A stretch of DNA of 64,000 nucleotides, taken from the sequence record MG976803.1; one strand, 5' to 3'. Origin of the DNA: Escherichia phage myPSH2311. Below, piece after piece: positions 7,454 through 62,760 of the stretch. Below the pieces are notes generated by a model. The model saw only the letters and a program-made list of their open reading frames with translations. It made no database searches and was not told where the DNA came from. The translations under genes and the position numbers were made by a program. Positions within the stretch are counted from its first letter, which is position 1. Each line of letters starts with the position of its first letter.

Positions 7454-7462
7454 ACATGCGTA

Positions 7463-10579: not shown

Positions 10580-10705
10580 CATCGCCAGCTTAGCGCTGCA
10601 TCAATTGTACCTATTACCAAAGGTGGTACAGGAGCTACTTCATCAGAGAATGCTCGACTAGCTCTAGTTGCAGCTAAGAGTGGTGATAACTCTGATATCA
10701 CCTCG

Positions 10706-23824: not shown

Positions 23825-24172
23825 ATGGCTAACATTAAACCGTGGGAAGAAGCTTCCAAAGCTCCTGCGTATCTGAATGCCTCTCCGGAGCAACAAGCTC
23901 AAATGAGAGAACAATATAAGGCAGCAGGTGGCTCTATTCCTGAGGAACAACCAGTAGCACAACCACAACAAGAAGAACGTGGTGCTATAGGTGAGTTTGC
24001 TCAAGGTGTGTCAAATGCTCTTCAATCTGGTGGTGCAAATATTGCAGCTAGTGCTGCTAAAGGTATTGGTGGTTTAGTTGAGATTGGTGAGAATCTAGCT
24101 GGAGCACAAACTAGTTATGGTAAGCGTATCCAAGAGAACTCTCAGAAAGTCAGTGTCATGAGTTGCTGGTGA
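23825..24172 (+). CDS. internal virion protein, N-terminal ORF
   Basis: ATG at 23825 preceded by AAAGGAGA; G/A-rich; ends 8 nt before the next ORF in the +1 frame. Confidence 0.5.
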   Translation: MANIKPWEEASKAPAYLNASPEQQAQMREQYKAAGGSIPEEQPVAQPQQEERGAIGEFAQGVSNALQSGGANIAASAAKGIGGLVEIGENLAGAQTSYGKRIQENSQKVSVMSCW

Positions 24173-24179
24173 TATCGGT

Positions 24180-26972
24180 TTGACAGTTGCTAACCCATTG
24201 GCTGCTGCTGCTATCATCGCAGGTCGTGAGACAGGTCGTGCATATGCAGACCAAACCCCTGAAGAGGGAGAAGATAAGTCTATTCTAGATGCAGCCTTAG
24301 TTGGTGGTGCTAACTATGCGGCTCAGAGAATCCTTCCGGGTGCTGTCGGTACAGCTGAGTCCACACTTGGACGTATTGGTCAGAACGTTGCTAGTAACGC
24401 AGTGGCTGGTGCTAAAGGTGGCGCTCTTGTGGGTGCTGCTGAAGCTCAGAACAAGCATGGAGATGATACAACCTTTGCTAATGTATTAGAGGGTGCTATC
24501 GAAGAAGGTGCTATGGGTGCTGCATTCGGTGGTGCAGTTGGTGGAGTTCATGGTTTGATTAGCCGTCCAGATTCTGCTGTCTTCAAGAATACTCCAGAGT
24601 ATGCGAAGACTGATATTGCTGCTGATGATGAACTAATTCGTAGTGCTAAGAATATTGATGAACTGAAAGAAGCTTACTCTAAAGCTGAAACTGCTAACGC
24701 TGCTTCTGCTCTGAATCTTCTGGATGAGAATGGATTCCGTATTACAGATGCTGTTGCTGTGGATTCTCCTGCTGCTCAGCGTATTCTTAATACTGACCAA
24801 GCTCGTGCTGAGAAAGCTGCTTCTGTTCAGAAAGAACATTCCAACATTCCGGGCCTTAATCCTTTAGCTTCTCCTGCTAAGACTCGTGGTAAAGCATTTG
24901 CTGATAATGAGCACAACCAGAAGCAGGCTGTTGCTATGAAGGATGCAATGGCTGACTACACCAAAGACAACACGAAAGCTCTTACAGATGTTCTAGATAA
25001 CCTAGACCGTGAATTAACTTCTCTCCGAGCTTCTGGTGATTTTACTGGTAGTCCGATTGATATTAAGAATCGTACACAAGCTGACCGTGATTTCATTGAT
25101 GCTTACAAGACTTTCTACAATGAAGCAAATCGATTCAAAGCTCGTGAAGGTGAAGATTTTAATAACTTTGTAGAGAAAGCTACTGAACTACAGAAGATGG
25201 CTGATAATGTTTCTCCAGAGATGAAGAAAGCTATCGGTGGGTTGAAGAAACTGAAAGGTATGCCTGAAGGTTTTAATCCTATTCAAGATGCTTATACTCT
25301 GAACAATACAGCTAAATTCATGAGCAACCAAGATCGTGGTTGGACTTCCTTGACTGATGATGGATTCCGTGAAGCTTCTTCACCTAGTCTGGTAATGAAC
25401 ACTCTTGGTGCTGCTAAGTATGCTCTGAATCGCTTCTCTTCTCAGCGTGCTCGTTCTCAACGTGTTAAGCAACAAGAATCTAACAGTGAAGCTATCCGCT
25501 CTCTTGCTCGTGGTGATTTGGAAGTTGCTCGTGCTAAATCTACTGCTGATGAAGCTCGTGCTAAGATGGAAGAAGAACCAGTTGTTGATGACATTAAATT
25601 TAAGACGCAAAATGACGTAGAAACCGAACCGGTTCGGGAGCCTTCTTCTAGTACTGTGACGGAAGAAAATCTTCCTTCTTCTACTCCTCAAGAGACTCCT
25701 CTTACAGCTCGTGATTTAGTTGCGCAAAGACGCGCTATCCGTCAGGCTGAACAGCGTCGCGCTGAAGAAGAGGCATTGGCTGCTCAAGAAGCTCCGGTCG
25801 AACAGGCTCCACAGGCTGAACCTCTCCCTGCTCGTAACCCTCTAGAGGAGCGTCGTGCAATGGAACAGCAACGTGCTCAAGAAGAGGCCGCACAGGCTCC
25901 AGAACCTACCGTAGAGGAACCAACAGTCAAAGCTGAGCCATTACCTGCCCGTGCTCCTAAAGCTCCTAAGGAAGCTGTACAGGACGTTAAACCGGCAAGT
26001 GGTGTAGAACGTTTAGCTGCTATGTCTAGTGCTGCTCGTCAGGCTACTAAAGATCGTGCAGAACGCTTTGCTCGTTCTCTGTACTCTAAGGCTGCTAAAG
26101 CTAAAGCTACTGCTGAAAACTTCTTGGCTTATAAAGGTGATCCTAAGGAACTGATGCGTCGTATTCGTCAGGAAGATAATGCTATCAACACTGAACGTCA
26201 TGAAGAAATGGCTCGTAACCAGAGTTGCATGTCCGAAGCGGTTATCGAGGAACGTGGTCTGCCAGAAGACATTGCTACTAAGGCATTACGTGCTGAAGAG
26301 AAAGGTTTAGGTGGGAACGTAACTAACTTGGATAGTCTGAAACGTCGTGCTGAAAGGTTGTATCAGAAGCAGCGTGAAGATGAGTTTGATAGACTGTACC
26401 AACAAGCTCTAGAAGAGAATAAAGCTTTCGATAACAAGAATGCTCCTAAGCTGGTTGACCAGAAGAAAGAGCTTCAGTCTGAGATTGATACTTTGATTGA
26501 TGCAGAACCTTTACGTCCTGCTCAGAAAGACGCTATGCGTAAATTGATGAATGACTTTGTAGATGGAAAGTTTAAATCTTCAGAGAAGGCTGGTAGGGAA
26601 GAGGCTTTGGAAGTTGGTCAGATGAAGGATATTTGGGATGGGTTTATTAACACCTATAACAGAGAAGTGAATGCCTTCAACAAAGCTAACAAGAACTCTC
26701 AGTACGAAGCTGCTGCTAAGCATTTACAGGCTCGTGAAGAACGTCTTGCTACACTCAGGAAAAAGGCTCAGGCTCGTTCGGATGCTAAAGCTGCTGTTGA
26801 GAATGAACGTAAAACTCTAGAGGCTATTGCAGCTCAGAAGAGTGAGATTGAGAAGATGATGGAAGGTTTACCTAAACCTGTTCGTGAGGCTCAGGAATCT
26901 CGTACACTGAAACAGTTGGCTGCTCACCACGATAAGAACTCTCCAGTTCCTCCAGAGAAGTTCCGTAGTTAA
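24180..26972 (+). CDS. large internal virion protein
   Basis: 930 aa; TTG start without SD; G/A-rich N-terminus, long charged coiled-coil segments, internal EPLPAR repeats. Confidence 0.55.
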   Translation: MTVANPLAAAAIIAGRETGRAYADQTPEEGEDKSILDAALVGGANYAAQRILPGAVGTAESTLGRIGQNVASNAVAGAKGGALVGAAEAQNKHGDDTTFANVLEGAIEEGAMGAAFGGAVGGVHGLISRPDSAVFKNTPEYAKTDIAADDELIRSAKNIDELKEAYSKAETANAASALNLLDENGFRITDAVAVDSPAAQRILNTDQARAEKAASVQKEHSNIPGLNPLASPAKTRGKAFADNEHNQKQAVAMKDAMADYTKDNTKALTDVLDNLDRELTSLRASGDFTGSPIDIKNRTQADRDFIDAYKTFYNEANRFKAREGEDFNNFVEKATELQKMADNVSPEMKKAIGGLKKLKGMPEGFNPIQDAYTLNNTAKFMSNQDRGWTSLTDDGFREASSPSLVMNTLGAAKYALNRFSSQRARSQRVKQQESNSEAIRSLARGDLEVARAKSTADEARAKMEEEPVVDDIKFKTQNDVETEPVREPSSSTVTEENLPSSTPQETPLTARDLVAQRRAIRQAEQRRAEEEALAAQEAPVEQAPQAEPLPARNPLEERRAMEQQRAQEEAAQAPEPTVEEPTVKAEPLPARAPKAPKEAVQDVKPASGVERLAAMSSAARQATKDRAERFARSLYSKAAKAKATAENFLAYKGDPKELMRRIRQEDNAINTERHEEMARNQSCMSEAVIEERGLPEDIATKALRAEEKGLGGNVTNLDSLKRRAERLYQKQREDEFDRLYQQALEENKAFDNKNAPKLVDQKKELQSEIDTLIDAEPLRPAQKDAMRKLMNDFVDGKFKSSEKAGREEALEVGQMKDIWDGFINTYNREVNAFNKANKNSQYEAAAKHLQAREERLATLRKKAQARSDAKAAVENERKTLEAIAAQKSEIEKMMEGLPKPVREAQESRTLKQLAAHHDKNSPVPPEKFRS

Positions 26973-27139
26973 TTGCAAGCCTTTTAAGGCGCGCTGAAGC
27001 GGCTTTAAATGGCGCTAAATCGTGCAAAATGCCCATTGGGAGCCTGAATGGCGCGTGTTTTGCATAAGCCGGCGTTTGCCCAGTTCGTAAGGCTGGTATT
27101 TTGCTGTAAAGCGTGATTCATCGCCGCCTGATGCGTACT

Positions 27140-27982
27140 ATGGAAGATAAGGGCATATCTAGAGAGGATGCTGAAGCATTTGCTGGTTCCTATATGGATA
27201 ACCGTTATGCACTTCTTGAGAAGCCTATGACTCCTACTGAACATCAGAATGCTCGTTCTCGTATCGAAGCTGATGTTGAGAAGTTTGCTAAGAAGTACGA
27301 ATCAATGACTCCTATCGAGAAAGAGATTGTTAAGGTTACTGGAGATACTGAAGGTAAGCTTGATAACTTGGATGCGGATACTAGGAAGGCTATTGAGGAG
27401 GCTCAGAAGGTTGACTCTGATATTAAGAAACTGCAAGAGGAAGAGTTGGAGATGGAGAAGATTCGTTCTGCTCTGCCTGATGATGAAAGATCTCAAGCAA
27501 ATTCTGATATCTTGGAAAGCATTAAACAACAGGAAGAGGTCTTTGCTGATAAAGTAGAGAAAGCTTTCTTGAGTGGGAAGAGCTTGGATGAGTTGGCTAG
27601 TGTGGCTGAAGTTTTAGACAGGGTTCATGGTGCAGATAAGGCTGGTAACAACCGTCGCTTTGTACGTGCATTGCAGACTGCTGCTGAAAACAAGAAGAAG
27701 TATGGTGATAATCCAGTAGCTTGGTTTAGTGCTGATGATTACTCTGCCATTGCTAAACTTGGTGCTTCTTCCGCAGGTGGTAACAAATCCAGAGCACTGG
27801 AGAAGATCTTTGGTTCTACAGCTGAACAGGCTAAGAGTAAGTTGCTTGGTAGGGATGATGTAGCGAAGATGAGACGTGTGATTGAAGAGAACCCTGATAT
27901 CAAGATTCCTTCTTACAAGACAGGTCAGGTTTCCAGTCCCAGTCAATGGGCATGCATGGTCCAAAATCGGCCCCTAGGGTAA
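27140..27982 (+). CDS. internal virion protein, truncated by insert
   Basis: track ORF 27113-27982; native-looking reading frame runs to 27922, last 20 codons derive from the filler. Confidence 0.45.
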   Translation: MEDKGISREDAEAFAGSYMDNRYALLEKPMTPTEHQNARSRIEADVEKFAKKYESMTPIEKEIVKVTGDTEGKLDNLDADTRKAIEEAQKVDSDIKKLQEEELEMEKIRSALPDDERSQANSDILESIKQQEEVFADKVEKAFLSGKSLDELASVAEVLDRVHGADKAGNNRRFVRALQTAAENKKKYGDNPVAWFSADDYSAIAKLGASSAGGNKSRALEKIFGSTAEQAKSKLLGRDDVAKMRRVIEENPDIKIPSYKTGQVSSPSQWACMVQNRPLG

Positions 27983-28022
27983 CGTCGGAATCCGGTACGC
28001 TTATGCCCCTAAGTGCATTTTT
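27923..28022. other. 100-bp GC-rich filler between perfect 81-bp direct repeats
   Basis: 27842-27922 is identical to 28023-28103; the intervening 100 bp is unrelated to flanks. Confidence 0.8.
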
Positions 28023-28247: not shown

Positions 28248-28524
28248 TAAAAGAAAAGCCCAGGGCTCGTTCAAGTCAAATGATGGGCTAGTCAATTAAG
28301 CCCCTTGGGCATAGCTGGCAATGCTAGTCACAACTTCTTCATTCATATACCCTCCTAGATTGTGTTTATAAAATTAGTAAGTTTCTCTTCACTTTCATCA
28401 AAAGCTTTTCCAGCTGCTTCCATCTCCCAAGTATCGGCATTGTCAATAAAGCTCTGAGCTTCTAATAGGTCGTGGATTAAGTCGAAGAGTTTATTTTTAT
28501 CTGCTTGTGTGATCATGTCAGTTC

Positions 28525-28791
28525 CTAGATTAAATCGTAATACTGAATAATGTCAGAGAGTTTGAACTCTCGAATCTCATCTTTCTCTACATCTATCGCT
28601 GTCATAATCCAACAAGGTTTGCCACCGTTATGAAAACGGGAGCTAGCAACGGAGGTTCGGAGTGGAATAACGGACCGGTCAGCAACCTCGCCTCTCCAAT
28701 TGCGATAGCGAAAGCGAAGCACTTGTTGCGTAGATTTTTGATCATCACTCATTTCCTTTTTTGAATTGTTTTCTTGCATCATTATTGGCAA
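28525..28791 (-). CDS. hypothetical protein
   Basis: 88 aa ORF, last gene of minus-strand module. Confidence 0.4.
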   Translation of the reverse strand: MPIMMQENNSKKEMSDDQKSTQQVLRFRYRNWRGEVADRSVIPLRTSVASSRFHNGGKPCWIMTAIDVEKDEIREFKLSDIIQYYDLI

Positions 28792-29078
28792 TGCTTAACG
28801 TAACTAGCTTGGGCTTCATGGTCAAGAGGAACTATAGGCTCTATGTGGTCAATAGCCATATCCTTTACAGGGTGGTCAGAACCACACATGGCACACTTAA
28901 AGTGCATTGCCAGTCTACCTGTCTTTGGATTAATCTTCTGCTCTGTCTTGGCGTCTGCTAGTGCATCGAACATGGGCTTCCACTTTCTAGTCAGAGAACG
29001 AATCCCTGACTTGATAAAAGAATTGTAACGAGCTTCAGTCCACATTCCAGAGCATCTAGTCTTCTCAGCCTTCGCCAT
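28782..29078 (-). CDS. HNH nuclease-domain protein
   Basis: 98 aa; HFKCAMCGSDHPVKDMAIDHIEPI matches HNH C..C/His motif. Confidence 0.5.
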   Translation of the reverse strand: MAKAEKTRCSGMWTEARYNSFIKSGIRSLTRKWKPMFDALADAKTEQKINPKTGRLAMHFKCAMCGSDHPVKDMAIDHIEPIVPLDHEAQASYVKHCQ

Positions 29079-29256: not shown

Positions 29257-29451
29257 TATAATATCCTTATTACCAAGATTTATCTAACCATGTCCAGTCG
29301 AACAGGTCTTCCGGAGTCTGACCAACAAAGAGCAGCCGAGCATTCTCAAGCATCTTCTCTTCATCTTCAGTATCGAACTTCTTATAATATTCCATTCGTA
29401 CTATATGATACATGGTCCAAGCCTGCATTGAACCGTAAAGCCCTTAGGCTG

Positions 29452-30078
29452 TTAGTTACCACCCCACATAACCTCTTTACGTTCCCCACATCCGGGGATG
29501 TTATCCGTACCATCTCCAATCAACATTTGATAGAAGAAGTTTTGCCATGAAACTAAATCAGATACGTAATGAGGAGGGACTTCTTTCTGTCTTTCTCCAC
29601 AAGCCCAGCGATAATGCCATCCGGGAGTTATCAACAAATCCTTGTCTCTAGTACAGATGATAGTATTCTTATCCCTACGTTGCCTTTCAGCTAGTGCATC
29701 ATCAGCCTCTCTCCCAAAGACCTCAATGTATTCGTACTTGGCTTTAATGTAATCACCAACGTTTTGCCAGTGAAAAGGTCTTTCTCCGGGAGGTCTGTTT
29801 GCCTTGTAGTCTTGTTGCTTAGCAACATCGAAACGGAAGTTACCGCCTTCGCTGAAGTAGAATACAACCTTACTACAACCCGAGCGAGCTATAATTGTAT
29901 CAATCTTGTACTGAAGTCGTTCAATCATGAAATTGTAATCAACTGGAACACGTCCTGTGTCAAGGAAGGGATGCTCCTGAGTAAGAGCACCCACTTCATA
30001 CCGAAGAACGTCAGCGTCCACTATAGCAACTTCAGGGAGCTTAACTTCTTCCATAAATATCATCCTGAGCTTGAGCAA
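29452..30078 (-). CDS. 5-3 exonuclease / flap endonuclease (PIN-like), possibly C-terminally truncated
   Basis: FDVAKQQDYKANR, GREADD, DKDLLI, LIGDGTDNIPG motifs; the helix-hairpin-helix part appears missing. Confidence 0.65.
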   Translation of the reverse strand: MLKLRMIFMEEVKLPEVAIVDADVLRYEVGALTQEHPFLDTGRVPVDYNFMIERLQYKIDTIIARSGCSKVVFYFSEGGNFRFDVAKQQDYKANRPPGERPFHWQNVGDYIKAKYEYIEVFGREADDALAERQRRDKNTIICTRDKDLLITPGWHYRWACGERQKEVPPHYVSDLVSWQNFFYQMLIGDGTDNIPGCGERKEVMWGGN

Positions 30079-30940: not shown

Positions 30941-32182
<1,242 letters not shown>

Positions 32183-34426: not shown

Positions 34427-34723
34427 TTAGATAGTTAATTTGTGATCTTCCTCCGCTCTGTTTCTAACAGAGACGGCTTCTTCTAGGGTTGAGAAAGTTC
34501 CTAGGTATTTAGTTTTCGTTGAAAGGCTTAAGGCTTTTGGCATAGCTGCAAAATGGGCCCGTTAATATGACCCGTTAAAGGCTTTTTTGGCATGCGTAAA
34601 AGGCTTGCTTAAATTTCCTGCCTCATCACCCCGCCTGCATTTTGTTCCGTTGCGAATTCTCCAGAACACTTTCCCAGATGATAAATCACAAACAAAGAAC
34701 TCATCCAGAAGATCTTCTATCAT
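34427..34723 (-). pseudogene. HNH-AP2 homing endonuclease remnant with internal filler
   Basis: 5-prime 26 codons MIEDLLDEFFVCDLSSGKVFWR and 3-prime end KYLGTFSTLEEAVSVRNRAEED flank a GC-rich filler at about 34515-34645. Confidence 0.5.
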
Positions 34724-36295: not shown

Positions 36296-36487
36296 TCACT
36301 CTACCAATGCAGGTACTTCTATCCTTTTAACTGTGAATGACTTGTTTGGAAACTTTCGAACTAGCTCTGCTGCTTTGGTTATTGCTAAGTTCTCTGTCTC
36401 AAAGATACACAGTTGACCATTTAATGCTACGAGAGTGGAGCCACCACTGTAGATGGCCCAAGATTGATAATAACCACGAACACTCAT
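36296..36487 (-). CDS. hypothetical protein
   Basis: 63 aa ORF just downstream of polymerase. Confidence 0.35.
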   Translation of the reverse strand: MSVRGYYQSWAIYSGGSTLVALNGQLCIFETENLAITKAAELVRKFPNKSFTVKRIEVPALVE

Positions 36488-36495
36488 AACTCACC

Positions 36496-38340
36496 TTAGT
36501 GCGTATGCATCCAGTTAAGTCCAATCTGACAATCAGAGGCCAGAGGACATTCCATATTCAAATACTCACCAGCCTTCTTAACACAAAGCTCGGTGTGCTC
36601 TTTGAGTTTCTGTACATCGTTACGATTAACTGAGAACTGGCCCTCGTCGTGCATATCAATTACCTTAGCACAACGAACTCCATCCTTCTCAATCCACTTG
36701 TTAAGGAACATCATAGCGTATTTCATAACAACAGCACCAGCACATTGCAGGAGAGTGTTAAGTGCTTTATGAACCATAACTTTACCAGTGGCATCTCGTC
36801 TCATTGTAATCTTACGACCATCAACACCAATCAAGTATCCTTGAGCAGCTTTCTCTGTCATACGATCAATGAGGATTGCAATACATGGGTTCTCTGCCAA
36901 GAAACGTGCTCGCATCACTGAACCTTCGTCAGCCCCACCACCTACAATTGAGCCAAGCTTAGCGTCGCCAGCACCGTAGTTGAATGCATAGATAAACGTT
37001 TTAGCATTGTCACGAGTAGGAAGACCAGCAAGTTTCTGGTTGTGGGAGTGGATATCACCTTCAAGGAGAATATCACGATACATAATAGCAGAAGCTAAAC
37101 CACGTTCTGCCAGAGCTTTCTTAGCTGGGTTGTTCTCTTCGATTGCCTCAGCAAGCATATCCCTACACTCTTTAATGAGGTAGTGAGCTAGCATACGAAG
37201 TTCAAGTCCAGAACCATCATACCCTAAGAATACTTCTTTGCCAGCGGGTATGTAATATTTGTAAGCACCTATAGGTTTGTCTTTCTTCCCCGGCTTACCT
37301 TTCTCGTAAATTACGTTAGTACCTTTTCGTATATAACAACCATCAGGAACAACGTTAGTAATAACGAAAGGATGAGAATGATCACTGTCTGAGTTATAGT
37401 CAGACTCAAACAAACTGCGGCACTCGTGACCAAACAAACCACGGGAGGGAATATTAACCACGATACGATGTTTGAATCGAAAAGTCGGCGTAGCGCAGCT
37501 GTTAGCTTCTGCCGAAAGTTTACCATCTTCGCGCTCCTTTGCTATGAGTCCACTGATAAGACCTAGCCTGTGAGCCGCTACAACGCGTCTCTTAAGCAAA
37601 CTTCCGACACTCCCTAGCTCACCCCCTAACCCTTCTTCAAGGGTCTCCTCGAGGTTTGTAGGAGCTGTAGGCCACTTGTTTGATGTGGCTAGTGCTTTCT
37701 TAATCTCATCAAACGTTACAGGATTACGGCGATTAGGGTTTAATCCCAAACCAAATACGTAAGCCTTCATATAATTCTTAGTTTTAAACCTGAAATGCTT
37801 TTCTAAGAACTTCTTAATATCAGCGTCAACCATCTCGGCTGTCTGCTTCTGCTTAGCATTGCCTCGCATCCAAGCAGTATACCATGCTTGGTACGTTCCA
37901 TACTTTCTCATATCTTTCTTGATTTCGAAAGTATTCCAAGGCTTCTTAGATACGTTAAACTCTGGAGGAAGAAATCCCTCATCCATAAGAGCTTCTTTAA
38001 CTCGTGCATCTTTCGATGGGTCAAAGTCTACGTATTCGACACAGGTGAAAGCTCCACCAATGTCTTCCCTCTTCAGCCCAACCCTATCACAATAGGCTTG
38101 AGGCCACTTCTGTAAAGCTCCAGACTTCTTAAACGGCTTCATATAAGTAGAGCCATCTAATCTCATCTTAGGTAAGAGAGGAATCAGTTCTTTGTCAATA
38201 TTAACAATAATCTCTTTAAGGAGGTGAACATACCACCGAGCATTTCTTCGGTTGAAACTCACTCCGTGCTTTGCTTGCTTAGAGATTATATCAGCGACAG
38301 TCATCTCTGTCAAAAATGGAAGAGCGTCCGGGTTGCTCAC
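36496..38340 (-). CDS. DNA polymerase, family A (polymerase domain only)
   Basis: 614 aa; motif A GYDGSGLELR, motif B RDNAKTFIYAFNYGAG, motif C IDMHDEG. Confidence 0.85.
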   Translation of the reverse strand: MSNPDALPFLTEMTVADIISKQAKHGVSFNRRNARWYVHLLKEIIVNIDKELIPLLPKMRLDGSTYMKPFKKSGALQKWPQAYCDRVGLKREDIGGAFTCVEYVDFDPSKDARVKEALMDEGFLPPEFNVSKKPWNTFEIKKDMRKYGTYQAWYTAWMRGNAKQKQTAEMVDADIKKFLEKHFRFKTKNYMKAYVFGLGLNPNRRNPVTFDEIKKALATSNKWPTAPTNLEETLEEGLGGELGSVGSLLKRRVVAAHRLGLISGLIAKEREDGKLSAEANSCATPTFRFKHRIVVNIPSRGLFGHECRSLFESDYNSDSDHSHPFVITNVVPDGCYIRKGTNVIYEKGKPGKKDKPIGAYKYYIPAGKEVFLGYDGSGLELRMLAHYLIKECRDMLAEAIEENNPAKKALAERGLASAIMYRDILLEGDIHSHNQKLAGLPTRDNAKTFIYAFNYGAGDAKLGSIVGGGADEGSVMRARFLAENPCIAILIDRMTEKAAQGYLIGVDGRKITMRRDATGKVMVHKALNTLLQCAGAVVMKYAMMFLNKWIEKDGVRCAKVIDMHDEGQFSVNRNDVQKLKEHTELCVKKAGEYLNMECPLASDCQIGLNWMHTH

Positions 38341-39228: not shown

Positions 39229-39483
39229 TTAAACTCCTTTAGGGAATGGGATGAGATTTTCTACTGCAACACGGAAAGATTTTTCTACGTTCTTATTCTT
39301 ATAAGAGATAAATTTTCCATCAGCTCCTCGAAGGAGTACGTTAGTGCGAGCTGTATTTGGGTTTTGTTGAATCATAGAACGAATGATGTTCTCTGAACCT
39401 CTATGCTTATTGGTGAATTTCCAACTGATAGTTTTACCGGTACGAGTTACATCAATGATATTTACGATTTTTACAATAGACAT
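39229..39483 (-). CDS. small protein, paralog pair member 2
   Basis: 84 aa, ends LIPFPKGV; shares TART.V.LR..GKFISY core. Confidence 0.4.
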   Translation of the reverse strand: MSIVKIVNIIDVTRTGKTISWKFTNKHRGSENIIRSMIQQNPNTARTNVLLRGADGKFISYKNKNVEKSFRVAVENLIPFPKGV

Positions 39484-39552
39484 ATTTATTACCTAAGAAG
39501 TTTAATTTGGTTTATATAAAAGAAAAGGCCACCTGATTAGGCAGCCTTTGTT

Positions 39553-39846
39553 CTAGAGACGAAGCCAAGTTTGATAGTCAGCTTCAGTGTAATGGTTGTT
39601 TCGAGAGTTGTTTTTCATTTCCTTGAGAGTAGCTCTCAGGTCAATGTTATGCTCTCTCCTTGTTCTATTCGGGTCTGTATCTTCTAATAGATGGGAGTGA
39701 TCACTACAAGAGTAGTGCTTATAGTGGTCCCTGTATCCTCTACTTGGAGAATACTTGGTCATTAAAGTTGCAACTCTTTTTACACCCTCTGCTTTACAGA
39801 ATTTACAATAAGTGTGAATTGTACATCTTTTTGTTTCTGCTGACAC
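39553..39846 (-). CDS. Cys/His-rich hypothetical protein
   Basis: 97 aa with CTIHTYCKFC. Confidence 0.35.
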   Translation of the reverse strand: MSAETKRCTIHTYCKFCKAEGVKRVATLMTKYSPSRGYRDHYKHYSCSDHSHLLEDTDPNRTRREHNIDLRATLKEMKNNSRNNHYTEADYQTWLRL

Positions 39847-39856
39847 TATAACCTCT

Positions 39857-40292
39857 TTATGAGCTTAAAGCTCCTTTGCGTGCTCCAGCTGCTTTTCCAG
39901 CTCGATCACCACTTTTGCCGCCGTTTGAACGGTTTGAGCTGACTGATTCAACACGTAAGTTGCTTGACGCATTAGAGCCTCCAGACTTGACAGCTCGTTT
40001 GTGTCCAACGTCTTTACCTCTGACAGCAGCTTTTCCATCGCGCTTTTCAACGATGCGACGTGCACGGTGGCGCTGAGCATCTCCGCTCTTGCTCCCAATT
40101 CCCGTTTCACCGCGCTTGATCGCAGTCCTTCTTTCTTGTGCATAATCTCTCTTTCCTACATGATCTGCCATTAGATTTCTCCTGTTGGGCAATGACGTTA
40201 AACGCCCGTTGTGGCCCAAAATTGGCGCCCAAAATTGGGGCTTAATGCGTGCGTAATTTTTGGGCCAAATTAAGGCCGTATATAATAACAGC
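39857..40292. other. GC-rich segment fused in frame to the PhoH ORF; coding status unclear
   Basis: two overlapping minus-strand frames both look protein-like; local GC well above phage average. Confidence 0.4.
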
Positions 40293-40840
40293 TGAGAGGT
40301 TTCTCCCAATCGAGTCATGATTGAGAAGGCTTCATCTTTAGTGGTGTTCTGGAACTCATCAACAATAACAATAGCATCATTGAAAGAACGACCACGGAGA
40401 TATTCCAGAGGTACAAACTCAATGTTACCATTTCCGATTTGGCATTCATAGAATCCCTTACCATATCGCTGAGTAATAACATCAATGATAGGCATCAGGT
40501 AAGGTTCAAACTTCTCACGCATTCCTCCCGGAAGTAACCCAAGAGAGTTGCCCATGCCGACAGAAGGGCGACTCAGAATGATCTTCTGAATCTTACCGCT
40601 CTTCAGTGCATCAATAACTGTGGAAGTGATTACAAAGGTCTTACCACAGCCCGCAGGAGCGTCTGTGAACACAACTTGTTTAGTCTTAATAGCATTGAGT
40701 AGCTCAGACTGAAACTGGTTCTGAGGGACTACAGGCTTTGCTAAAACCACCTCTTCATACTCTCGCTTACCTTTACGAGTAACAAGTGCTTCCCGACGAA
40801 GGTCTTTCCGTGATTCTTTCCGTGATTGACGACGACTCAT
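40293..40840 (-). CDS. phoH: PhoH-like ATPase, C-terminally disrupted
   Basis: Walker A DAPAGCGKTF, Walker B IVIVDEFQN, TRLGETSQ; conserved C-terminal region replaced. Confidence 0.6.
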
Positions 40841-41022
40841 TTACGCTCTCCAATTTCTTCGTAATGACACTCAGTAGTTAAGCAGTCTTTACAGATTGCT
40901 GTATAAACCCTGACGTTAGTAAATCGTTTGTTCTTCCCTTTGGTTGGAGAGCCTTTGGCAAGCTCTCTGATAACCTTGTTACTTAAATGAAGGTTTGTTC
41001 CTTCACATTTAGAGCACTTCAT
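40837..41022 (-). CDS. zinc-ribbon protein
   Basis: 61 aa with CSKCEG and CKDC pairs. Confidence 0.4.
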   Translation of the reverse strand: MKCSKCEGTNLHLSNKVIRELAKGSPTKGKNKRFTNVRVYTAICKDCLTTECHYEEIGERK

Positions 41023-41338
41023 GGTTCATATCTTTATGAATCCTGTAAACAGCTGTCGCCATACAAGCAACAGCCTCGTTGTGTGGGAGGTGCATCCCTG
41101 TAGAACCATCCCAATCTTTGAACTCATTGTCAAAGACTCCGGTAGGCTCTGGATATAGAGCTTGCAGCTCCACTAGATCATTAGCAACTTGTTGCCATTT
41201 ATCATCAGACCAGATAGGGTCATCCAACCAGTAATACAAATAGGAATGGATGATCAATTGCCTTCTATGCCGATTGATTACTTCAGCGGGACTTATCTCA
41301 CTTCCATTTGAAGTCCTAAATGTATTACTGTCAATCAT
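41009..41338 (-). CDS. hypothetical protein
   Basis: 109 aa ORF. Confidence 0.4.
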   Translation of the reverse strand: MIDSNTFRTSNGSEISPAEVINRHRRQLIIHSYLYYWLDDPIWSDDKWQQVANDLVELQALYPEPTGVFDNEFKDWDGSTGMHLPHNEAVACMATAVYRIHKDMNHEVL

Positions 41339-41750: not shown

Positions 41751-42095
41751 TTAACTCTCCAAAGTTTTCTTCAGAGCTGCCCATGAGATTGGGTAGAGCT
41801 TAGCCATCTCTTCATCTACGGATTTAGCAAACACTCGAACTTCATATTGAGCGTGAGATGAGAGTCGCTGACGACACAACTCAAACCAGCCATACAAAGA
41901 ACCAGTCCACACCCACTCAGTGATCATCCCCTGAGGAAGAACAAATCGAGCTTGCTCTGGTGCAATAAATTCAATCAACTTGTCATATGTTGCTAGAGAA
42001 GCTTCATATGCATCGTTAATCAACATTAATGCTTCAGCTCGTTCTCCGTCGATGAGTTGAATCCCTGAACCTGCATGGTTTGCCCAAAATGGCAT
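41751..42095 (-). CDS. thyX: flavin-dependent thymidylate synthase ThyX, C-terminal half
   Basis: ARFVLPQG..RLSSHAQYEVR matches ThyX C-terminal conserved block. Confidence 0.6.
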   Translation of the reverse strand: MPFWANHAGSGIQLIDGERAEALMLINDAYEASLATYDKLIEFIAPEQARFVLPQGMITEWVWTGSLYGWFELCRQRLSSHAQYEVRVFAKSVDEEMAKLYPISWAALKKTLES

Positions 42096-42163
42096 TGGCG
42101 CTATAGCATGGGGCTTTTTAAATGGCCCCGCGGGTTAATGCTAATGGCGGATTTTGGCCACGG

Positions 42164-42469
42164 TTATGCATGCGTAGGGAGTTCAACTGCTCCATCTTTA
42201 TACCGCCGGGACATTTCGTTCCACGAGAATCCAACCTGATGCTTGCCCAGCTGTCTCGCAATTGCGATAGGTGCTTTGCATCGGAAACTGACTTGCGGGT
42301 GTCGGAATGGAGTACAGTGTTTTTCCCGTGCAAGGAAGTTGATAAGTTTTGTGTCTCTCTCATTTAAGTCACCTTCTCGAACAACACCGAAAGATACTCT
42401 AGCTGCATTGACTACAGATTTGTCACTACCCATTGCTTCAATCAGTGTTGCTTGTAGTTGTTCGTTCAA
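42164..42469 (-). CDS. thyX: flavin-dependent thymidylate synthase ThyX, N-terminal half
   Basis: AARVSF, HCTPFRH and KH..FSWNEMSRRY resemble the ThyX signature; separated from the C-terminal half by a filler. Confidence 0.6.
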   Translation of the reverse strand: MNEQLQATLIEAMGSDKSVVNAARVSFGVVREGDLNERDTKLINFLAREKHCTPFRHPQVSFRCKAPIAIARQLGKHQVGFSWNEMSRRYKDGAVELPTHA

Positions 42470-43422: not shown

Positions 43423-44034
43423 TTAGTAAGACACGTCACCACTTGAATGGGACATGTTGCTCTTGACGAAGTAGCAATACTTGCCAAGACCTTCATTAAT
43501 TTCTTGAAGCATACTCTGATCGACAGGGTAGGATGCTAAATCGCCATCAAACTCATCCATCTTCTCAATAATACACATCAAGGTCATGCACATATCAGAG
43601 AGCATACCGTCCATGTCTAGATCAGCATTACCCTCTGAGAACCAGGCATGGGAGAGGTAGTTAGCCGCTGTAGCATCCACCTTAACGCAGTGGTATCGCA
43701 TACGCTCAGCAATACGATCTCCTACCTGTCGTGCGTAATCTTCCAGCTCGTCAAACATACCATGAACACCCTGAAATCCTGCACCAGAGACATTCCAGTG
43801 GTAGTTTTTAGCTTTGATATGCAAGAGTTCCATGTTAGCTTGTAAGCAGCTCAGGATGTGTTCTAGGCTGTTTGCACTAATCATGCCTTGCATTGTTTCA
43901 AGGCGAGAGATTGAAAGCTCAGACCGGTCTAACATACTATAACTGTCACGACCAATCTCAGGTAAATCAAAAACATTCTTATGCATTTGGGTTTTCTCCA
44001 TCAAGTTCAACTGAGTTAGCAACATTACGTGCAA
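43423..44034 (-). CDS. hypothetical protein
   Basis: 203 aa ORF. Confidence 0.45.
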   Translation of the reverse strand: MHVMLLTQLNLMEKTQMHKNVFDLPEIGRDSYSMLDRSELSISRLETMQGMISANSLEHILSCLQANMELLHIKAKNYHWNVSGAGFQGVHGMFDELEDYARQVGDRIAERMRYHCVKVDATAANYLSHAWFSEGNADLDMDGMLSDMCMTLMCIIEKMDEFDGDLASYPVDQSMLQEINEGLGKYCYFVKSNMSHSSGDVSY

Positions 44035-44237
44035 TATTATCCATTACCTGCTGGGTAATTACGATGCAGTTTAGGCATGGTAATGCGTTTAGGCGTCTTG
44101 GGGAGGTGCCCCCAGTTGCAAGCTGATGCTGCGGGTAAATTGGCGCCATGGGAAACGCGTTAATGCGTGCCTGATGTTATCTTTTCTCATGTGTTGCTCA
44201 AGATCCCAAACAACATGAATAGCCCACATCTTTTTCA

Positions 44238-45381: not shown

Positions 45382-45498
45382 TCTTGCTCCTTAGTTATTT
45401 GTTTCCATTTAAGCGTGCATATTTTGGCTAATTTTTGGCGTAAAAGTTTTCGCCCAGTGCCTGATTGAACCGGGTCGTAATTATTGCCCGGGTAGTGT

Positions 45499-45591
45499 TT
45501 AAAATGGCGAGGAATTAACAGCTGAGTGTGGTGCATCAATAACACCATCATCAATTAATTTATGTAACTCTGGACTTCCTAGTAAACTCAT
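45499..45591 (-). pseudogene. diverged duplicate of the dCTP deaminase 5-prime end
   Basis: encodes MSLLGSPELHKLIDDGVIDA then runs into filler; compare MSLLGSVELHDVIDNGYLDA of the intact gene. Confidence 0.55.
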
Positions 45592-45978: not shown

Positions 45979-46034
45979 CCCTTCAATTGCAAATTGGCGC
46001 CCAATTTGGCAATGATTTGCCCCGTTTGTTAAGC

Positions 46035-46949
46035 CTATGCAAATGTGCGCTTTGGCGATTGGGCCAAATTGGCCTGAAGACTAGACATAATCTGAATCTC
46101 TTCATAAGGGATTCCAAAGAATCGACTCATGTCTCGGTTAACACAATATAGAGCACTTGTTGTATCTTCAATAAGAGAAACCTGACCTAATCCATTGACT
46201 AGATGACTAACTGGCTGAGGTGTGGGAAGATATCGAGTTTGGGCCATGTATTGATGCGCAACTGCTGGAGAGGAAAATCTCAACACTTGTGAGTTAGGCC
46301 ACTTCTTGTGAACATACCTGATTTCACGACTAGAGACAACCACTGGACAAGGGGAAGTCATAGCCAAATATCCGTGAGAAGTCATGAATAAGTTGTCAAG
46401 AGTCATCGCACCACGGCACATCATAGGAAAATTATCCAATACCTCTTCAATAGAAGTAGGATAATTAAACATGAATTGGATACGAACCCCATTCCACTGA
46501 AACTCAATAATATCAGTGAATGTTAATTGAGAACCCCCAGCATAGGATTCGTTTGTAGCTTCAGCAAGAAGTGATGCATATTCAATATCTTGTGACTCTA
46601 GCCATTCCTTCACATTACTTTCAATCTCCCGTCCAAGCTCTTGCCAACGATCAGTTGGGATGAAAGTGTTTTGAGTTCTTGGTGTTTGTCCTCTGACAAT
46701 AAAGATATCAATGTCATGTGGAGCTATGTTATTAAGGACAGCATCACGAACAGCCCCACCAGTAATGATGGGACAGATACCATCTGGAATCAAGTTGTTG
46801 TTAATCAACTGTTCAATGAAGTGACGACCAACAGTGATATCAGGTTGTTGAGCAACCTTATCTTCAATTTGGTTAATCGGGATAACAATCATTTTACATT
46901 TTCCAATATAATGAAGGTGGGTCGTAAGGGTCAAATCCCGTGAGTTCAC
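46035..46949 (-). CDS. nucleotidyltransferase (Pol beta superfamily, CCA-adding/poly(A) polymerase-like head)
   Basis: [15 protein letters not shown] motif. Confidence 0.5.
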
Positions 46950-48785: not shown

Positions 48786-48905
48786 ACCAAAATTGCGTGA
48801 CGTTGGCTAATTGCTGACGTGGAATGGCCCTGGCAATTGGGATGCCCCGTGTTAGCTGCGATTTGGCGCGTTATTGGCCCCGTGTTTGCAAGTAATGCGC
48901 GGGCT

Positions 48906-49124
48906 TTATGCCGTTAATGCTGGGTTTATGCGTGCATATTGCTGTGCCAATGCGTAATGGGTAGTGCCCTTTTCGAACACTTCGTAATTCCCACAACGGT
49001 TACAACTCCCCCACTCCTCACCAGTCTCTTCGTTACGGAAGAGAATCATGTGGTTGTGGGTTTTATCACGACCATGAGAGATACATTCCTTACAACCTGT
49101 GTCTCCCAAAATGATCTTTGACAT
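48906..49124 (-). CDS. zinc-ribbon protein, probable detached primase zinc-binding domain
   Basis: CKEC..CNRC pairs; separated from the TOPRIM ORF by a GC-rich filler. Confidence 0.45.
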   Translation of the reverse strand: MSKIILGDTGCKECISHGRDKTHNHMILFRNEETGEEWGSCNRCGNYEVFEKGTTHYALAQQYARINPALTA

Positions 49125-49302: not shown

Positions 49303-49515
49303 TTAAATACTTGGCTTCAAGTCTCCGAAGAGCCATGTGGCAATTTTATCTTGTTCTTCGTCGATATGATAAATCCAAGCGATAACAGTTTCACCTGAGT
49401 CCATCTTAACAGCAATCTGAGTACGCTGATAGAAGCTGTCTTCAGGGCTACGTTTGTTGTAACCTTCCAGACGGTCATACGGACCTTCCAGACCTGCTTT
49501 GTCAGTAGCAAACAC
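49303..49515 (-). CDS. AIG2/gamma-glutamyl-cyclotransferase-like protein, C-terminal part
   Basis: continues the 49627-49926 ORF once the filler and 110-bp duplication are removed. Confidence 0.45.
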   Translation of the reverse strand: MFATDKAGLEGPYDRLEGYNKRSPEDSFYQRTQIAVKMDSGETVIAWIYHIDEEQDKIATWLFGDLKPSI

Positions 49516-49606: not shown

Positions 49607-49706
49607 AATGGGCCGTTTTATGCGGTTTAAAGGCCTTGACCAGTGCATTTGCCCGTTAAATGGCGTGGGGATTTCCCAGTGCGGGTGGCCAGTAAACGTG
49701 TTTTGT
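49607..49706. other. 100-bp GC-rich filler between 110-bp direct repeats
   Basis: 49497-49606 matches 49707-49816; intervening 100 bp unrelated. Confidence 0.8.
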
Positions 49707-50137: not shown

Positions 50138-50190
50138 AAAACCTCCAGCTTATCCGAACTAGCCTCCTCTTTCGAAGAGGCTAAAGCAGA

Positions 50191-50376
50191 TTACTCTGTA
50201 ATAAAGATTTTGATTACACCACAGATTGCTGCACTCTCAAATACTGCAACAGCTTCACTCCCCTGAAAGAAGGCCACTTTGCCGTCAGAGAAGTTAAACA
50301 TGTCAGCATCTAGGTCCATAGCTCGCATATCACCAGCGTCGTTAGTATCTTTAAACAGAACTTTATACTTATTCAC
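50191..50376 (-). CDS. small acidic protein C, copy 3
   Basis: 61 aa MNKYKVLFKDTND..., ends in Glu; identical to copy 2. Confidence 0.5.
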   Translation of the reverse strand: MNKYKVLFKDTNDAGDMRAMDLDADMFNFSDGKVAFFQGSEAVAVFESAAICGVIKIFITE

Positions 50377-50621
50377 AGATAGGTCACTCCTTTGTCTTGT
50401 TGTGCTTCAGAGATGATACGTTCTACACATTCCATAGAATACTTATCACCACGTTTCAGGAAAGTCACAATTGCAGAGAATTGATTACCAATCATTCGCT
50501 GATTAGTAATACCCCACTCCTCACACAACTTACGCAACTCTTTACGAGAGCCTACAATCAGAGGCTCTTTTTGTTCCATCATTCCATTTTGTACTAGATC
50601 TTCCAATGAAAACATATCCAT
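50373..50621 (-). CDS. small protein B, copy 3
   Basis: 82 aa MDMFSLEDLVQNG...; ATGA overlap with gene C. Confidence 0.5.
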   Translation of the reverse strand: MDMFSLEDLVQNGMMEQKEPLIVGSRKELRKLCEEWGITNQRMIGNQFSAIVTFLKRGDKYSMECVERIISEAQQDKGVTYL

Positions 50622-50627
50622 ATATCC

Positions 50628-51419
50628 TTAGTAGTTTACAACAGTGCCATCGTTCAGGGTAAGGCTATTAATCTGCAACACACGACCAAGCTGACGATCA
50701 CTAATTGGTGCGTTCCATCCAGAGCGGTAGAAGTTACGACCACAGAAGAACAAGATCACATTACTTGCTACAGTCGAACCGTTTTCAGGATGCTTGATGT
50801 TAGCGATATAATAACCACGACGCAGATTACGACGGGTTACAGGGTTGATCTCTAACCCTTGCTCTTCAACTTGCATTGTTTCAGGAACAGGTTCCGAAGA
50901 TTCTTCAGCAACTGGCTCGGAGCTTTCCACTGACAGTGCGTAATCCTCATCACCTGCTGGTGAAAATGTTTCTTCCACTTCTTCAACAGGAAGTTCGTAT
51001 GCAACACGATAGTCAGGCTCAACACCAGAGAAGCTCTTAACAAACTCAACAATATTGTGAGTATAGGTTTCCAGAGTTGTTCCAGTCAGTCCCGGAGCTG
51101 TGTTAACTTCCAGAACCCAAGCGTTAGTATTTTTACTAATCAGGTCAACAGCACCAAAGTTCAAACCCAGAGCAGATACAGCTTTGTGAGCTTGAATCAA
51201 AACCTGATCAGGAGGCGCATCTTGGAAGTTTGAGGAATAAACCCAACCAGTGTGATGATTTCGAACGTCTTCACGATAGGAAGGATCTTCACGGTAACCA
51301 TTACGACGAATCTTCTTCTGAACGTAAGTGATAACACCTTCGAATACATGAACACGCCATTCACGATTGGTGAACGATAAGGGAAAGGTCCTTGGCCATA
51401 GCGTGGCGTATGCATGCAT
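50628..51419 (-). pseudogene. ATP-grasp ligase 3-prime half, truncated copy
   Basis: starts within filler and joins ATP-grasp at REWRVHVFEG; retains EVNTAPG motif; lacks N-terminal ATP-binding half. Confidence 0.55.
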
Positions 51420-62561: not shown

Positions 62562-62760
62562 ATTATTTACCCTTTATCAGAGATTAAAAGTAATATTATT
62601 TAAGTAAGTTATATTTAGTAAACTTATTTTCTAAGAAATTTTCAAAGGGTCTATATACAGAGCATTACCCATAGTCCCAGAATACTACCATCTTTTTCAA
62701 TAAATTTACTAAGTGGTTGGTTTATAAAGGAATTTAGTTTGTCAAATCTGGCACTAGTGA

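What the first reader, a model, noticed from the sequence alone, without database searches (positions are those of the whole stretch)
39857..40840. PhoH-like gene has its 3-prime end replaced by a GC-rich segment with two protein-like frames
Conserved PhoH sequence stops after TRLGETSQ; the frame continues through a filler into a K/R/G-rich tail, while another frame encodes a 92-aa coiled-coil-like ORF (39865-40143).
Basis: seen in the sequence. Interest (0 to 1): 0.5.

Follow-up and report, generated by a model that had tools for sequence, protein, structure and literature searches.

The report
Assembly seam, not a PhoH fusion
The "PhoH gene with a replaced 3' end" is a seam in a patchwork phage sequence, where a 102-base block found in no database covers a break and happens to join a truncated phoH in frame to the ordinary next gene.

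Summary
The window is a Kuravirus (phiEco32-like) E. coli phage, closest to myPSH1131 and ES17. The 327-codon ORF at 39857..40840 (-) exists, and PhoH homology does stop at residue 184 (…TRLGETSQL).

The "K/R/G-rich tail" is not a replacement. It is the native next gene (39857..40171, 104 aa, SU10 CDS56 / ES17_54, phrog_4590), with its own RBS and ATG. It is 99.8% identical to ES17 at the DNA level. It was detected by mass spectrometry in SU10 and belongs to a small HNH-motif family.

The 92-aa "coiled-coil" frame is an accidental open frame. Substitutions are 26 synonymous to 12 non-synonymous in the K/R/G frame but 3 to 35 in the other. An open stretch that long arises in 9-24% of synonymous recodings.

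Only 40185-40286 (102 nt) is foreign. It matches nothing in six collections. It is one of at least 17 similar orphan blocks, about 11 of them roughly 100 nt, plus about 10 shorter ones. The blocks share an odd word vocabulary and replace genuine sequence present in myPSH1131 and ES17. They frameshift or stop terminase, portal, major capsid, tail fibre, ThyX and primase/helicase genes.

Verdict: sequence-construction artefact, not a biological feature.

The parts
40287..40840 (-). 5' part of phoH (codons 1-184 plus 2 nt). It holds Walker A (APAGCGKTF) and Walker B (IVIVDEFQN) and ends at ...TRLGETSQL. The last 61-62 codons, including the GDxxQxD motif, are absent.
   Evidence: Pfam PF02562 E 1.2e-45, profile positions 2-151 of 205. 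NCBIfam NF007827 positions 46-197 of 253, 131.9 bits against a cut-off of 380. phrog_170 E 3.7e-61. 182/184 identical to ES17_56. DNA 99.0% to ES17 from 40287 and 100% to myPSH1131 from 40344.
40185..40286 (.). Orphan 102-nt block (the 'filler'). It replaces 1040 nt of ES17: the phoH 3' end, ES17_55 and spacers. At slightly different boundaries (window 40173-40286) it replaces 239 nt of SU10: the phoH 3' end plus a 56-nt spacer with a middle promoter. It is one of at least 17 such blocks in the window.
   Evidence: Unaligned to ES17 and SU10. No match in phages, E. coli genomes, IMG/VR, GTDB genomes or JGI metagenomes. Leave-one-out Markov log-odds +0.418 bits/nt for the 'filler' class, while only 0.75% of backbone 100-mers score above 0. 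No Rfam match. RNA fold z -1.45 and -0.48.
40172..40184 (-). ES17-type ribosome-binding region (CAGGAGAAATCTA) of the 104-aa gene. It is the last genuine bases before the seam.
   Evidence: Aligned to ES17 but not to SU10 or myPSH1131, which carry a different spacer here.
39857..40171 (-). Independent conserved gene of 104 aa (SU10 CDS56, ES17_54, PSH1131_044). It is K/R/G-rich and carries an HNH-like core (DVGHKR...GGSN...NLR......N).
   Evidence: Annotated CDS in ES17, SU10 and myPSH1131. phrog_4590 E 1.4e-40. Synonymous vs non-synonymous codons against L008 are 26:12. 77 homologous clusters. H57 and N80 invariant. 16/35 members hit Pfam HNH and 12/35 hit HNH_3. SU10 gp56 detected by MS (PMC4281155).
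39865..40143 (-). 92-codon open frame (+1 relative to the 104-aa gene).
   Evidence: No PHROG, Pfam or NCBIfam family. Synonymous vs non-synonymous codons are 3:35 against L008 and 4:34 against L009. The frame carries stops in the distant homologue L010. An open stretch of at least 92 codons arises in 9-24% of synonymous recodings. Unrelated to ES17_55, also 92 aa.

Best explanation
The junction at 40185-40286 is a seam of sequence construction, not something the phage does.

Shown: the window is a patchwork rendering of a Kuravirus genome. About 36 kb is at least 99.9% identical to Escherichia phage myPSH1131, and the rest is ES17-like. At some 27 places genuine sequence has been cut out and replaced by orphan blocks. 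Two classes are visible. About 11 blocks are roughly 100 nt (94-102) and sit at joins where collinearity jumps, runs backwards, or stacks strain variants. About 15 blocks are 7-169 nt, and their length tracks the length of the missing genuine sequence. The block in phoH belongs to the first class. It removes the last 61-62 codons of phoH and the phoH-CDS56 spacer. That spacer carries a middle promoter with the tAATGTATAtA motif in SU10 and myPSH1131.

By chance (about 6%) the block has no stop in the phoH frame and leaves phoH in frame with the next gene's ATG. A mechanical ORF call therefore gives a 327-aa 'fusion'. The next gene is an ordinary, separately expressed 104-aa HNH-motif protein. 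Its K/R/G/A-rich composition raises GC and, because it has few T-at-position-2 codons, leaves the +1 frame open by accident.

Inferred: the break falls here because the phoH-CDS56 interval is strain-variable (56 nt in SU10, 866 nt with an extra gene in ES17). The underlying data also look like a mixture of strains, so the assembly broke there. Contigs were then ordered on a reference with fixed-length gaps, and the gap positions ended up as invented A/C/G/T letters. Who or what wrote those letters cannot be determined from here.
For: 1. Only 102 nt is unaligned. The flanks are 99.8% and 99.0% identical to ES17 and 99.98% and 100% identical to myPSH1131.
2. Window vs ES17 shows about 30 breaks. 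At least 15 blocks of 68-169 nt are orphan, and two more at 34517-34620 and 45409-45508 have the same texture.
3. 1557 nt of concatenated blocks has no match in 50,697 phage records at E<=1, although the backbone matches about 99 Kuravirus records.
4. The blocks form one compositional class. In leave-one-out 3rd-order Markov scoring, 13 of 15 score above 0, against 0.75% of backbone 100-mers. 59 six-mers occur in at least 4 blocks, against 25±6 expected from the blocks' own dinucleotide content and 8.8±4.3 for backbone pieces.
5. At eight of these sites checked side by side, myPSH1131 and ES17 carry identical genuine sequence of 38-184 nt, with flanks identical to the window, where the window has filler of a different length.
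6. The blocks introduce frameshifts or in-frame stops in terminase large subunit, portal, major capsid, tail fibre, exonuclease, ThyX and primase/helicase. Such a genome could not be viable.
7. For 15 variable-length blocks, length correlates with the length replaced: r = 0.96, replaced ≈ block + 63±25 nt. That behaviour fits estimated-size gaps.
8. The ATP-grasp region is present three times, separated by blocks. One copy is 100% myPSH1131, one is 99.8% ShigP1/FS2B type, and one is 99.8% ES17 type. This is stacking of strain-variant contigs.
9. The public myPSH1131 record was made by CLC de novo assembly plus CONTIGuator reference-guided scaffolding (PMC6200275). It also has about 100-nt orphan blocks at joins, including one at 43970-44069 directly before a phoH that is cut 57 nt from the window's cut.
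10. The exact 327-aa product is not on record among 153 billion gene positions.
11. Four relatives checked (L005, L007, L008, SU10) have phoH aligned from residue 1 to residue 243-246, upstream of the 104-aa gene; L009 aligns from residue 12 to 243 and L006 only from residue 65 to 243.
Against: - The window has no N characters, so 'gap' is an inference from block length and position, not something seen directly.
- I could not identify the source record or the process that wrote the letters.
- The myPSH1131 record's own 100-nt blocks have a different, backbone-like composition. The two renderings are therefore not the same file.
- One block (60549-60648) does not share the common vocabulary.
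- The phoH-CDS56 interval is naturally variable among Kuraviruses. A natural rearrangement at this spot is therefore not implausible when considered alone.
Confidence: 0.92

Rival explanations
1. A real natural variant. Illegitimate recombination or repair after a homing-endonuclease cut at the variable phoH-CDS56 spacer deleted the phoH 3' end and captured 102 nt of unknown DNA. The result would be a truncated, probably inactive PhoH or a PhoH-HNH fusion.
For: The interval is an indel hot spot: a 56-nt spacer in SU10, 866 nt between the two CDSs with an extra gene in ES17, and longer spacers in L007 and L009. HNH homing endonucleases are annotated next to phoH in YW01 and YF01. A 10-nt imperfect direct repeat (AGATTTCTCC / AGGTTTCTCC) lies near both edges.
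Against: The block belongs to a class of at least 17 blocks with a shared vocabulary that also destroy essential genes. It is absent from every collection searched. The nearest record has genuine sequence at sister sites. The 10-nt repeat does not sit at the junction itself.
Confidence: 0.04
2. The orphan blocks are copies of a small mobile element (MITE-like) or a family of inserted regulatory or structured-RNA cassettes that has spread through this phage genome.
For: There are many blocks of similar size (about 100 nt) with internal inverted and direct repeats (GGCCCAAAATTGG twice plus an inverted copy).
Against: The blocks share only 9-14-nt words, with no alignable homology, terminal inverted repeats or target-site duplications. 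They replace variable amounts of flanking DNA rather than inserting. There is no Rfam family. Folding is no better than shuffles, with z from -1.45 to +0.97 over six folds of five blocks. Essential genes are broken.
Confidence: 0.02
3. Dual coding. The 39857-40171 segment would encode two proteins in overlapping frames, the K/R/G-rich one and the 92-aa helical one.
For: The +1 frame is open in the window and in five Kuravirus relatives, including two that are 85-86% identical at the protein level (L008 and L009). The translation looks helical.
Against: Substitutions are overwhelmingly non-synonymous in that frame: 3:35 and 4:34, against 26:12 and 20:17 in frame 0. Variable columns fall at codon positions 1/2/3 as 23/12/45. 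The frame has stops in L010. There is no family hit. An open frame that long is expected in 9-24% of recodings. The MS-detected SU10 gp56 mass of 10.8 kDa is that of the annotated frame.
Confidence: 0.02

Closest known systems
Pseudomolecule joins of reference-guided scaffolders (ABACAS/CONTIGuator-type fixed-length linkers) and estimated-size scaffold gaps
   Same: Blocks of about 100 nt sit at joins where collinearity with relatives jumps, runs backwards by 81-110 nt, or stacks variant contigs. A second class has length that tracks the missing sequence (r = 0.96). The sister record myPSH1131 was built with CLC plus CONTIGuator.
   Different: Real linkers are runs of N, whereas here they are A/C/G/T letters with a peculiar shared vocabulary. 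That CONTIGuator/ABACAS uses 100-N linkers is my recollection. The CONTIGuator paper text I read does not state it.
GenBank MG983840.1, Escherichia phage myPSH1131 ('complete genome')
   Same: About 36 kb of the window is at least 99.9% identical to it. It has the same triplicated ATP-grasp region. Its phoH is also cut, 57 nt from the window's cut, and is preceded by a 100-nt orphan block. No phoH CDS is annotated.
   Different: Its junction holds 2.5 kb of duplicated DNA-polymerase-region contigs and an SU10-type spacer. Its short gaps are filled with genuine sequence. Its 100-nt blocks have backbone-like composition.
Kuravirus PhoH-like ATPase (SU10 gp57, ES17_56; Pfam PF02562)
   Same: Residues 1-184 are 99% identical, with Walker A and B present.
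   Different: It lacks the C-terminal 62 residues, including GDTNQHD.
SU10 CDS56 / phrog_4590 small HNH-motif proteins
   Same: The protein is identical to ES17_54 and differs from SU10 CDS56 at two residues. It is conserved in all five C3-morphotype phages and was MS-detected. The HNH core H...N...N is conserved.
   Different: In the window it has lost its upstream spacer and promoter and is read as the tail of phoH.

Membership tests
PhoH-like ATPase (PF02562 / NF007827) | Score above the curated family cut-off | tested here: inconclusive
   Pfam 156 bits against a cut-off of 27: met. NCBIfam equivalog 131.9 bits against a cut-off of 380: not met.
PhoH-like ATPase (PF02562 / NF007827) | P-loop NTPase Walker A (GxxGxGKT) and Walker B (hhhhDExQN) | tested here: met
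   APAGCGKTF at residues 61-69 and IVIVDEFQN at residues 156-164.
PhoH-like ATPase (PF02562 / NF007827) | Complete domain including the C-terminal GDxxQxD motif (profile positions 152-205) | tested here: not met
   The match stops at profile position 151 of 205. ES17 has FCMGDTNQHD... where the window has LLYTALIWPK....
Scaffold-gap or fill-in artefact | Recurrent blocks of fixed length at breaks of collinearity with close relatives | tested here: met
   About 11 blocks of 94-102 nt.
Scaffold-gap or fill-in artefact | Block sequence unsupported by any independent sequence, while relatives hold genuine sequence at the site | tested here: met
   No match in any collection. Genuine sequence is present in myPSH1131 and ES17.
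Scaffold-gap or fill-in artefact | Blocks disrupt genes that a viable genome needs | tested here: met
   Terminase, portal, capsid, tail fibre and primase/helicase are broken.
Scaffold-gap or fill-in artefact | Gap characters (N), or absence of read support across the block | not testable with these tools
   The window holds only A, C, G and T. No reads or source record are available.
HNH (ββα-Me) nuclease, for the 104-aa gene | Conserved His general base and Asn/His metal ligands in an H-N-N/H spacing | tested here: met
   H57 and N80 are invariant. G64, G65, N71 and L72 are at least 90% conserved in 35 sequences.
HNH (ββα-Me) nuclease, for the 104-aa gene | Significant match to a curated HNH model or to a solved HNH fold | tested here: inconclusive
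   The window protein has no Pfam hit at E<=0.1. 16/35 relatives hit PF01844 (best 8.8e-5) and 12/35 hit PF13392 (best 2e-5). The model has pLDDT 68.8, with β53-57, β72-76 and α77-81. Most Foldseek PDB hits, including the best (4h9d), are HNH nucleases or HNH-containing complexes, but all have E>=1.7.
Overlapping (dual-coding) genes | Purifying selection in both frames and an ORF longer than composition predicts | tested here: not met
   3:35 synonymous to non-synonymous codons in the second frame. P = 0.09-0.24 for an open stretch of at least 92 codons.
Mobile mini-element (MITE or homing-endonuclease scar) | Alignable copies with terminal repeats or target-site duplications; insertion rather than replacement | tested here: not met
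   Only 9-14-nt shared words. The blocks replace 38-1040 nt or more of genuine DNA.

The most novel reading that the evidence does not exclude
The window is a faithful sequence of a real, possibly defective or satellite-dependent, Kuravirus variant. In it, 102 nt of DNA of unknown origin replaced the phoH 3' end and the middle promoter. The product would be a PhoH(1-184)-linker-HNH-motif fusion protein, and similar blocks elsewhere would represent an unknown sequence-replacement process.
Probability: 0.02. Interest if true: 0.4.

Novelty: not a real feature. Interest (0 to 1): 0.04.

Why it matters
It matters mainly as a warning. This window cannot be read as a faithful genome. It contains about 27 invented or unsupported blocks and stacked strain variants. 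Any finding in it that touches one of the listed coordinates (broken thyX, capsid, terminase, 'tandem triplication', odd GC-rich inserts) is suspect.

The same applies to the public record MG983840.1, which is labelled 'complete genome'. It carries about 100-nt orphan blocks, duplicated contigs and no intact phoH.

The small positive result is that the conserved 104-aa gene next to phoH in C3-morphotype phages, annotated 'hypothetical', belongs to a family with a conserved HNH core.

Tried and rejected
- **Foreign origin of the 102-nt block.** I searched for it in phages (near and distant), E. coli genomes, IMG/VR (three patterns, including a gapped flank-to-flank pattern), GTDB genomes and JGI metagenomes. 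Nothing was found.
- **Structured RNA or regulatory element.** Rfam at E<=10 gave nothing in the block. Folding z-scores were -1.45 and -0.48. Promoter and terminator scans were at chance level: 3 promoter-like sites against 2.7 expected, and 3 terminator-like sites against 1.2.
- **The 92-aa ORF as a homologue of ES17_55 (also 92 aa).** They are unrelated.
- **Mobile-element family.** There is no alignable similarity among the blocks.
- **Exact look-up of the 327-aa product to find the source contig.** It is not on record.
- **PDB by sequence for the 104-aa protein.** The single sequence and the 5-sequence profile gave nothing. The 35-sequence profile gave only chance-level hits, one of them on a Cas9 HNH domain at E 2.8.
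- **CONTIGuator paper, for an explicit statement of 100-N linkers.** The held text does not contain one.

Full report
**What the window is.** All genes around the finding lie on the minus strand. Megablast of 39300-41300 finds 99 phage records, nearly all Escherichia Kuravirus (phiEco32-like, Gordonclarkvirinae). ES17 is the best at 99.4%, but its alignment comes in two pieces that span 2939 nt of ES17 for 2001 nt of query.

**Checking the observation.** The 327-aa ORF at 39857..40840 (-) and the 92-aa ORF at 39865..40143 (-) exist. Pfam PhoH matches residues 37-186, which is profile positions 2-151 of 205. NCBIfam PhoH matches positions 46-197 of 253. Against ES17 PhoH (246 aa), residues 1-184 are 182/184 identical. 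Identity ends at ...TRLGETSQL, where ES17 continues FCMGDTNQHDMRGRE....

**What lies after the break.**
- Local blastn shows window 39300-40184 equals ES17 at 99.8%, and window 40287-41300 equals ES17 at 99.0%.
- Only 40185-40286 (102 nt) is unaligned. It stands in for 1040 nt of ES17: the last 62 codons of phoH, the extra gene ES17_55 and spacers.
- Against SU10 the unaligned window stretch is 40173-40286 (114 nt), standing in for 239 nt: the last 61 codons of phoH plus a 56-nt spacer.
- The 'K/R/G-rich tail' is therefore the native downstream gene, annotated as a 315-nt CDS in ES17 (ES17_54), SU10 (SU10_056) and myPSH1131 (PSH1131_044).
- It has its own ATG at 40171 with AGGAG upstream, and it matches phrog_4590 end to end at E 1.4e-40.
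- In SU10, gp56 (10.8 kDa) and gp57 PhoH (27.6 kDa) were detected by mass spectrometry as separate proteins. A middle promoter carrying the phage-sigma motif tAATGTATAtA was placed between CDS56 and CDS57, and CDS56 is reported in all five C3-morphotype phages (PMC4281155).
- Of the relatives checked, L005, L007, L008 and SU10 have phoH aligned from residue 1 to residue 243-246; L009 aligns from residue 12 and L006 only from residue 65.

**The two frames.**
- Across the window, ES17, SU10 and five IMG/VR relatives, variable columns fall at codon positions 1/2/3 of the K/R/G frame as 23/12/45.
- Against L008, codon differences are 26 synonymous to 12 non-synonymous in that frame, but 3 to 35 in the 92-aa frame. 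Against L009 they are 20:17 and 4:34.
- The 92-aa frame has no family and carries stops in the distant homologue L010.
- A stop in the +1 frame needs T at codon position 2, and a K/R/G/A/S-rich protein has few such codons. The frame therefore stays open easily: 9% of recodings with genome codon usage and 24% of permutations of the gene's own codons give at least 92 open codons.
- GC is raised only at codon positions 1 and 2 (0.60 and 0.57, against 0.54 and 0.41 in the genome). GC3 is 0.34 in both, so the segment is native by codon usage.

**The 102-nt block.**
- It has no match in phages, E. coli genomes, IMG/VR, GTDB genomes or JGI metagenomes.
- The 327-aa product is not on record.
- The block has no Rfam match, and its folding is not better than shuffles.
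- It contains GGCCCAAAATTGG-like words twice, plus an inverted copy.

**The decisive context.**
- Comparing the whole window with ES17 shows collinearity at 98-100% that is broken about 30 times.
- At the breaks sit orphan blocks. Those of about 100 nt are 7368-7466 (99), 27923-28022 (100), 40185-40286 (102), 42079-42178 (100), 44072-44171 (100), 45409-45508 (100), 49607-49706 (100), 51367-51460 (94), 52764-52859 (96), 54527-54623 (97) and 60549-60648 (100).
- Others are 109, 140, 68, 83 and 169 nt, and about ten are short (7-36 nt).
- Concatenated, 1557 nt of blocks find nothing in 50,697 phage records at E<=1.
- They share a composition and vocabulary distinct from the backbone. In leave-one-out Markov scoring 13 of 15 score above 0, against 0.75% of backbone 100-mers. 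59 six-mers recur in at least 4 blocks, against 25±6 and 8.8±4.3 in the two controls.
- They are not alignable to each other.
- The closest record over much of the window is myPSH1131 (MG983840.1): about 14.4 kb at 100% and about 36 kb at 99.9% or better.
- At eight sites checked side by side, myPSH1131 and ES17 hold identical genuine coding sequence between flanks identical to the window, where the window has a block of a different length.
- The blocks frameshift or stop the terminase large subunit, portal, major capsid, tail fibre, exonuclease, ThyX and primase/helicase genes. No viable phage looks like this.
- For 15 variable-length blocks, length tracks the length replaced (r = 0.96, offset 63±25 nt). 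That is how estimated-size gaps behave.
- The roughly 100-nt class sits where ES17 coordinates jump (by 38 to 4717 nt), run backwards (81 and 110 nt), or where variant copies are stacked.
- The ATP-grasp region occurs three times. The copies match myPSH1131 (100%), ShigP1/FS2B (99.8%) and ES17 (99.8%).

**Why the seam is here (inference).**
- The phoH-CDS56 interval differs between strains.
- The window's left edge is ES17-type, while myPSH1131 carries the SU10-type spacer.
- The stacked variants point to a strain mixture, and an assembly of a mixture breaks at such a spot.
- The myPSH1131 genome was assembled with CLC and then scaffolded on a reference with CONTIGuator (PMC6200275).
- That record also has about 100-nt orphan blocks at joins. 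One lies at 43970-44069, directly before a phoH that is cut 57 nt from the window's cut, and no phoH CDS is annotated there.
- Its blocks differ in composition from the window's, so the window is another rendering and not a copy of that file.
- That such scaffolders use 100-N linkers is my recollection. The CONTIGuator text I read does not say so.
- The window has no N. Who or what wrote letters into the gaps cannot be told from here.

**Why a 327-aa ORF appears.** A shuffled block of this composition avoids stops in the phoH frame 18% of the time. Being in frame with the next ATG adds a factor of 1/3, giving about 6%. With more than 14 blocks inside genes, one read-through is expected now and then.

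**Side result.**
- The 104-aa protein belongs to a family of 77 clusters of proteins, nearly all 87-114 aa (one of 150 aa).
- In a 35-sequence alignment H57 and N80 are invariant, and G64, G65, N71 and L72 are nearly so. This gives DHK..GGSN..SNLR......N, an HNH (H-N-N) core.
- 16 of 35 members hit Pfam HNH and 12 of 35 hit HNH_3, with best E-values of 8.8e-5 and 2e-5. The window copy itself does not reach E 0.1.
- An AlphaFold model (pLDDT 68.8) has β53-57, β72-76 and α77-81.
- Most Foldseek PDB hits, including the best (4h9d), are HNH nucleases or HNH-containing complexes, but all are weak, with E at 1.7 or above.
- It works like a minimal HNH module. Membership is inconclusive and activity is untested.

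**Verdict.** The feature is an artefact of how this sequence was put together. Interest is very low, apart from the warning about this window and about MG983840.1.

Noticed in passing
window 7368-7466, 10487-10595, 26976-27115, 27923-28022, 28262-28329, 34517-34620, 42079-42178, 44072-44171, 45409-45508, 45992-46074, 48792-48960, 49607-49706, 51367-51460, 52764-52859, 54527-54623, 60549-60648. Short ones at 2066-2077, 5296-5307, 24148-24161, 26223-26247, 28784-28811, 29420-29455, 31115-31140, 49335-49346, 59027-59044, 60848-60854.: Orphan blocks like the one in phoH. They are absent from 50,697 phage records, share a vocabulary (ATGCGT, TTGGCG, AATGGC, GGCCCA, ATGCATGCATGC), replace genuine sequence, and break terminase, portal, major capsid, tail fibre, exonuclease, ThyX and primase/helicase. 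Any other first-stage finding that touches these coordinates is suspect.
   Followed up: yes
window 50147-51366, 51461-52763, 52860-54526: The ATP-grasp region is present three times in tandem, separated by blocks. The copies are 100% myPSH1131-type, 99.8% ShigP1/FS2B-type and 99.8% ES17-type. This looks like stacked contigs from a strain mixture rather than a real triplication. MG983840.1 has the same three places.
   Followed up: partly
L012/L013 (GenBank MG983840.1, myPSH1131): 36444-36543, 43970-44069, 53386-53485, 55168-55277, 56494-56589, 58706-58803, 62758-62859, 64515-64614, 72591-72689: The public 'complete genome' record itself has roughly 100-nt blocks at contig joins that do not match ES17. 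Some are stitched from roughly 35-nt fragments of sequence found elsewhere in the genome. The record also has duplicated DNA-polymerase-region contigs and no annotated phoH.
   Followed up: partly
window 39857-40171 (-): The conserved 'hypothetical' 104-aa gene next to phoH (SU10 CDS56, phrog_4590) has a conserved HNH core (H57, N71, N80). Relatives hit Pfam HNH and HNH_3, and most fold-search hits, including the best, are HNH nucleases, but all are weak.
   Followed up: partly
window 41751-42095 and 42164-42469 (-): thyX is split into two ORFs by the 100-nt block at 42079-42178. The block replaces 38 nt of genuine sequence that is present in ES17 and myPSH1131.
   Followed up: yes
window 8651, 23778, 33473 (+) and 33281 (-): There are four exact TAATGTATA sites, the core of the phiEco32 gp36-sigma promoter motif, against 0.63 expected by chance. 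The copy that SU10 and myPSH1131 carry between phoH and CDS56 is missing from the window because of the seam.
   Followed up: partly
window 39553-39846 (-) and 39524-39549 (-): The next gene downstream is 97 aa (phrog_9585, E 5.5e-46) and is Cys/His-rich (CTIHTYCKFC...HYKHYSCSDHSH), suggesting metal binding. It is followed by an 11-bp-stem terminator-like hairpin with a T-run.
   Followed up: no
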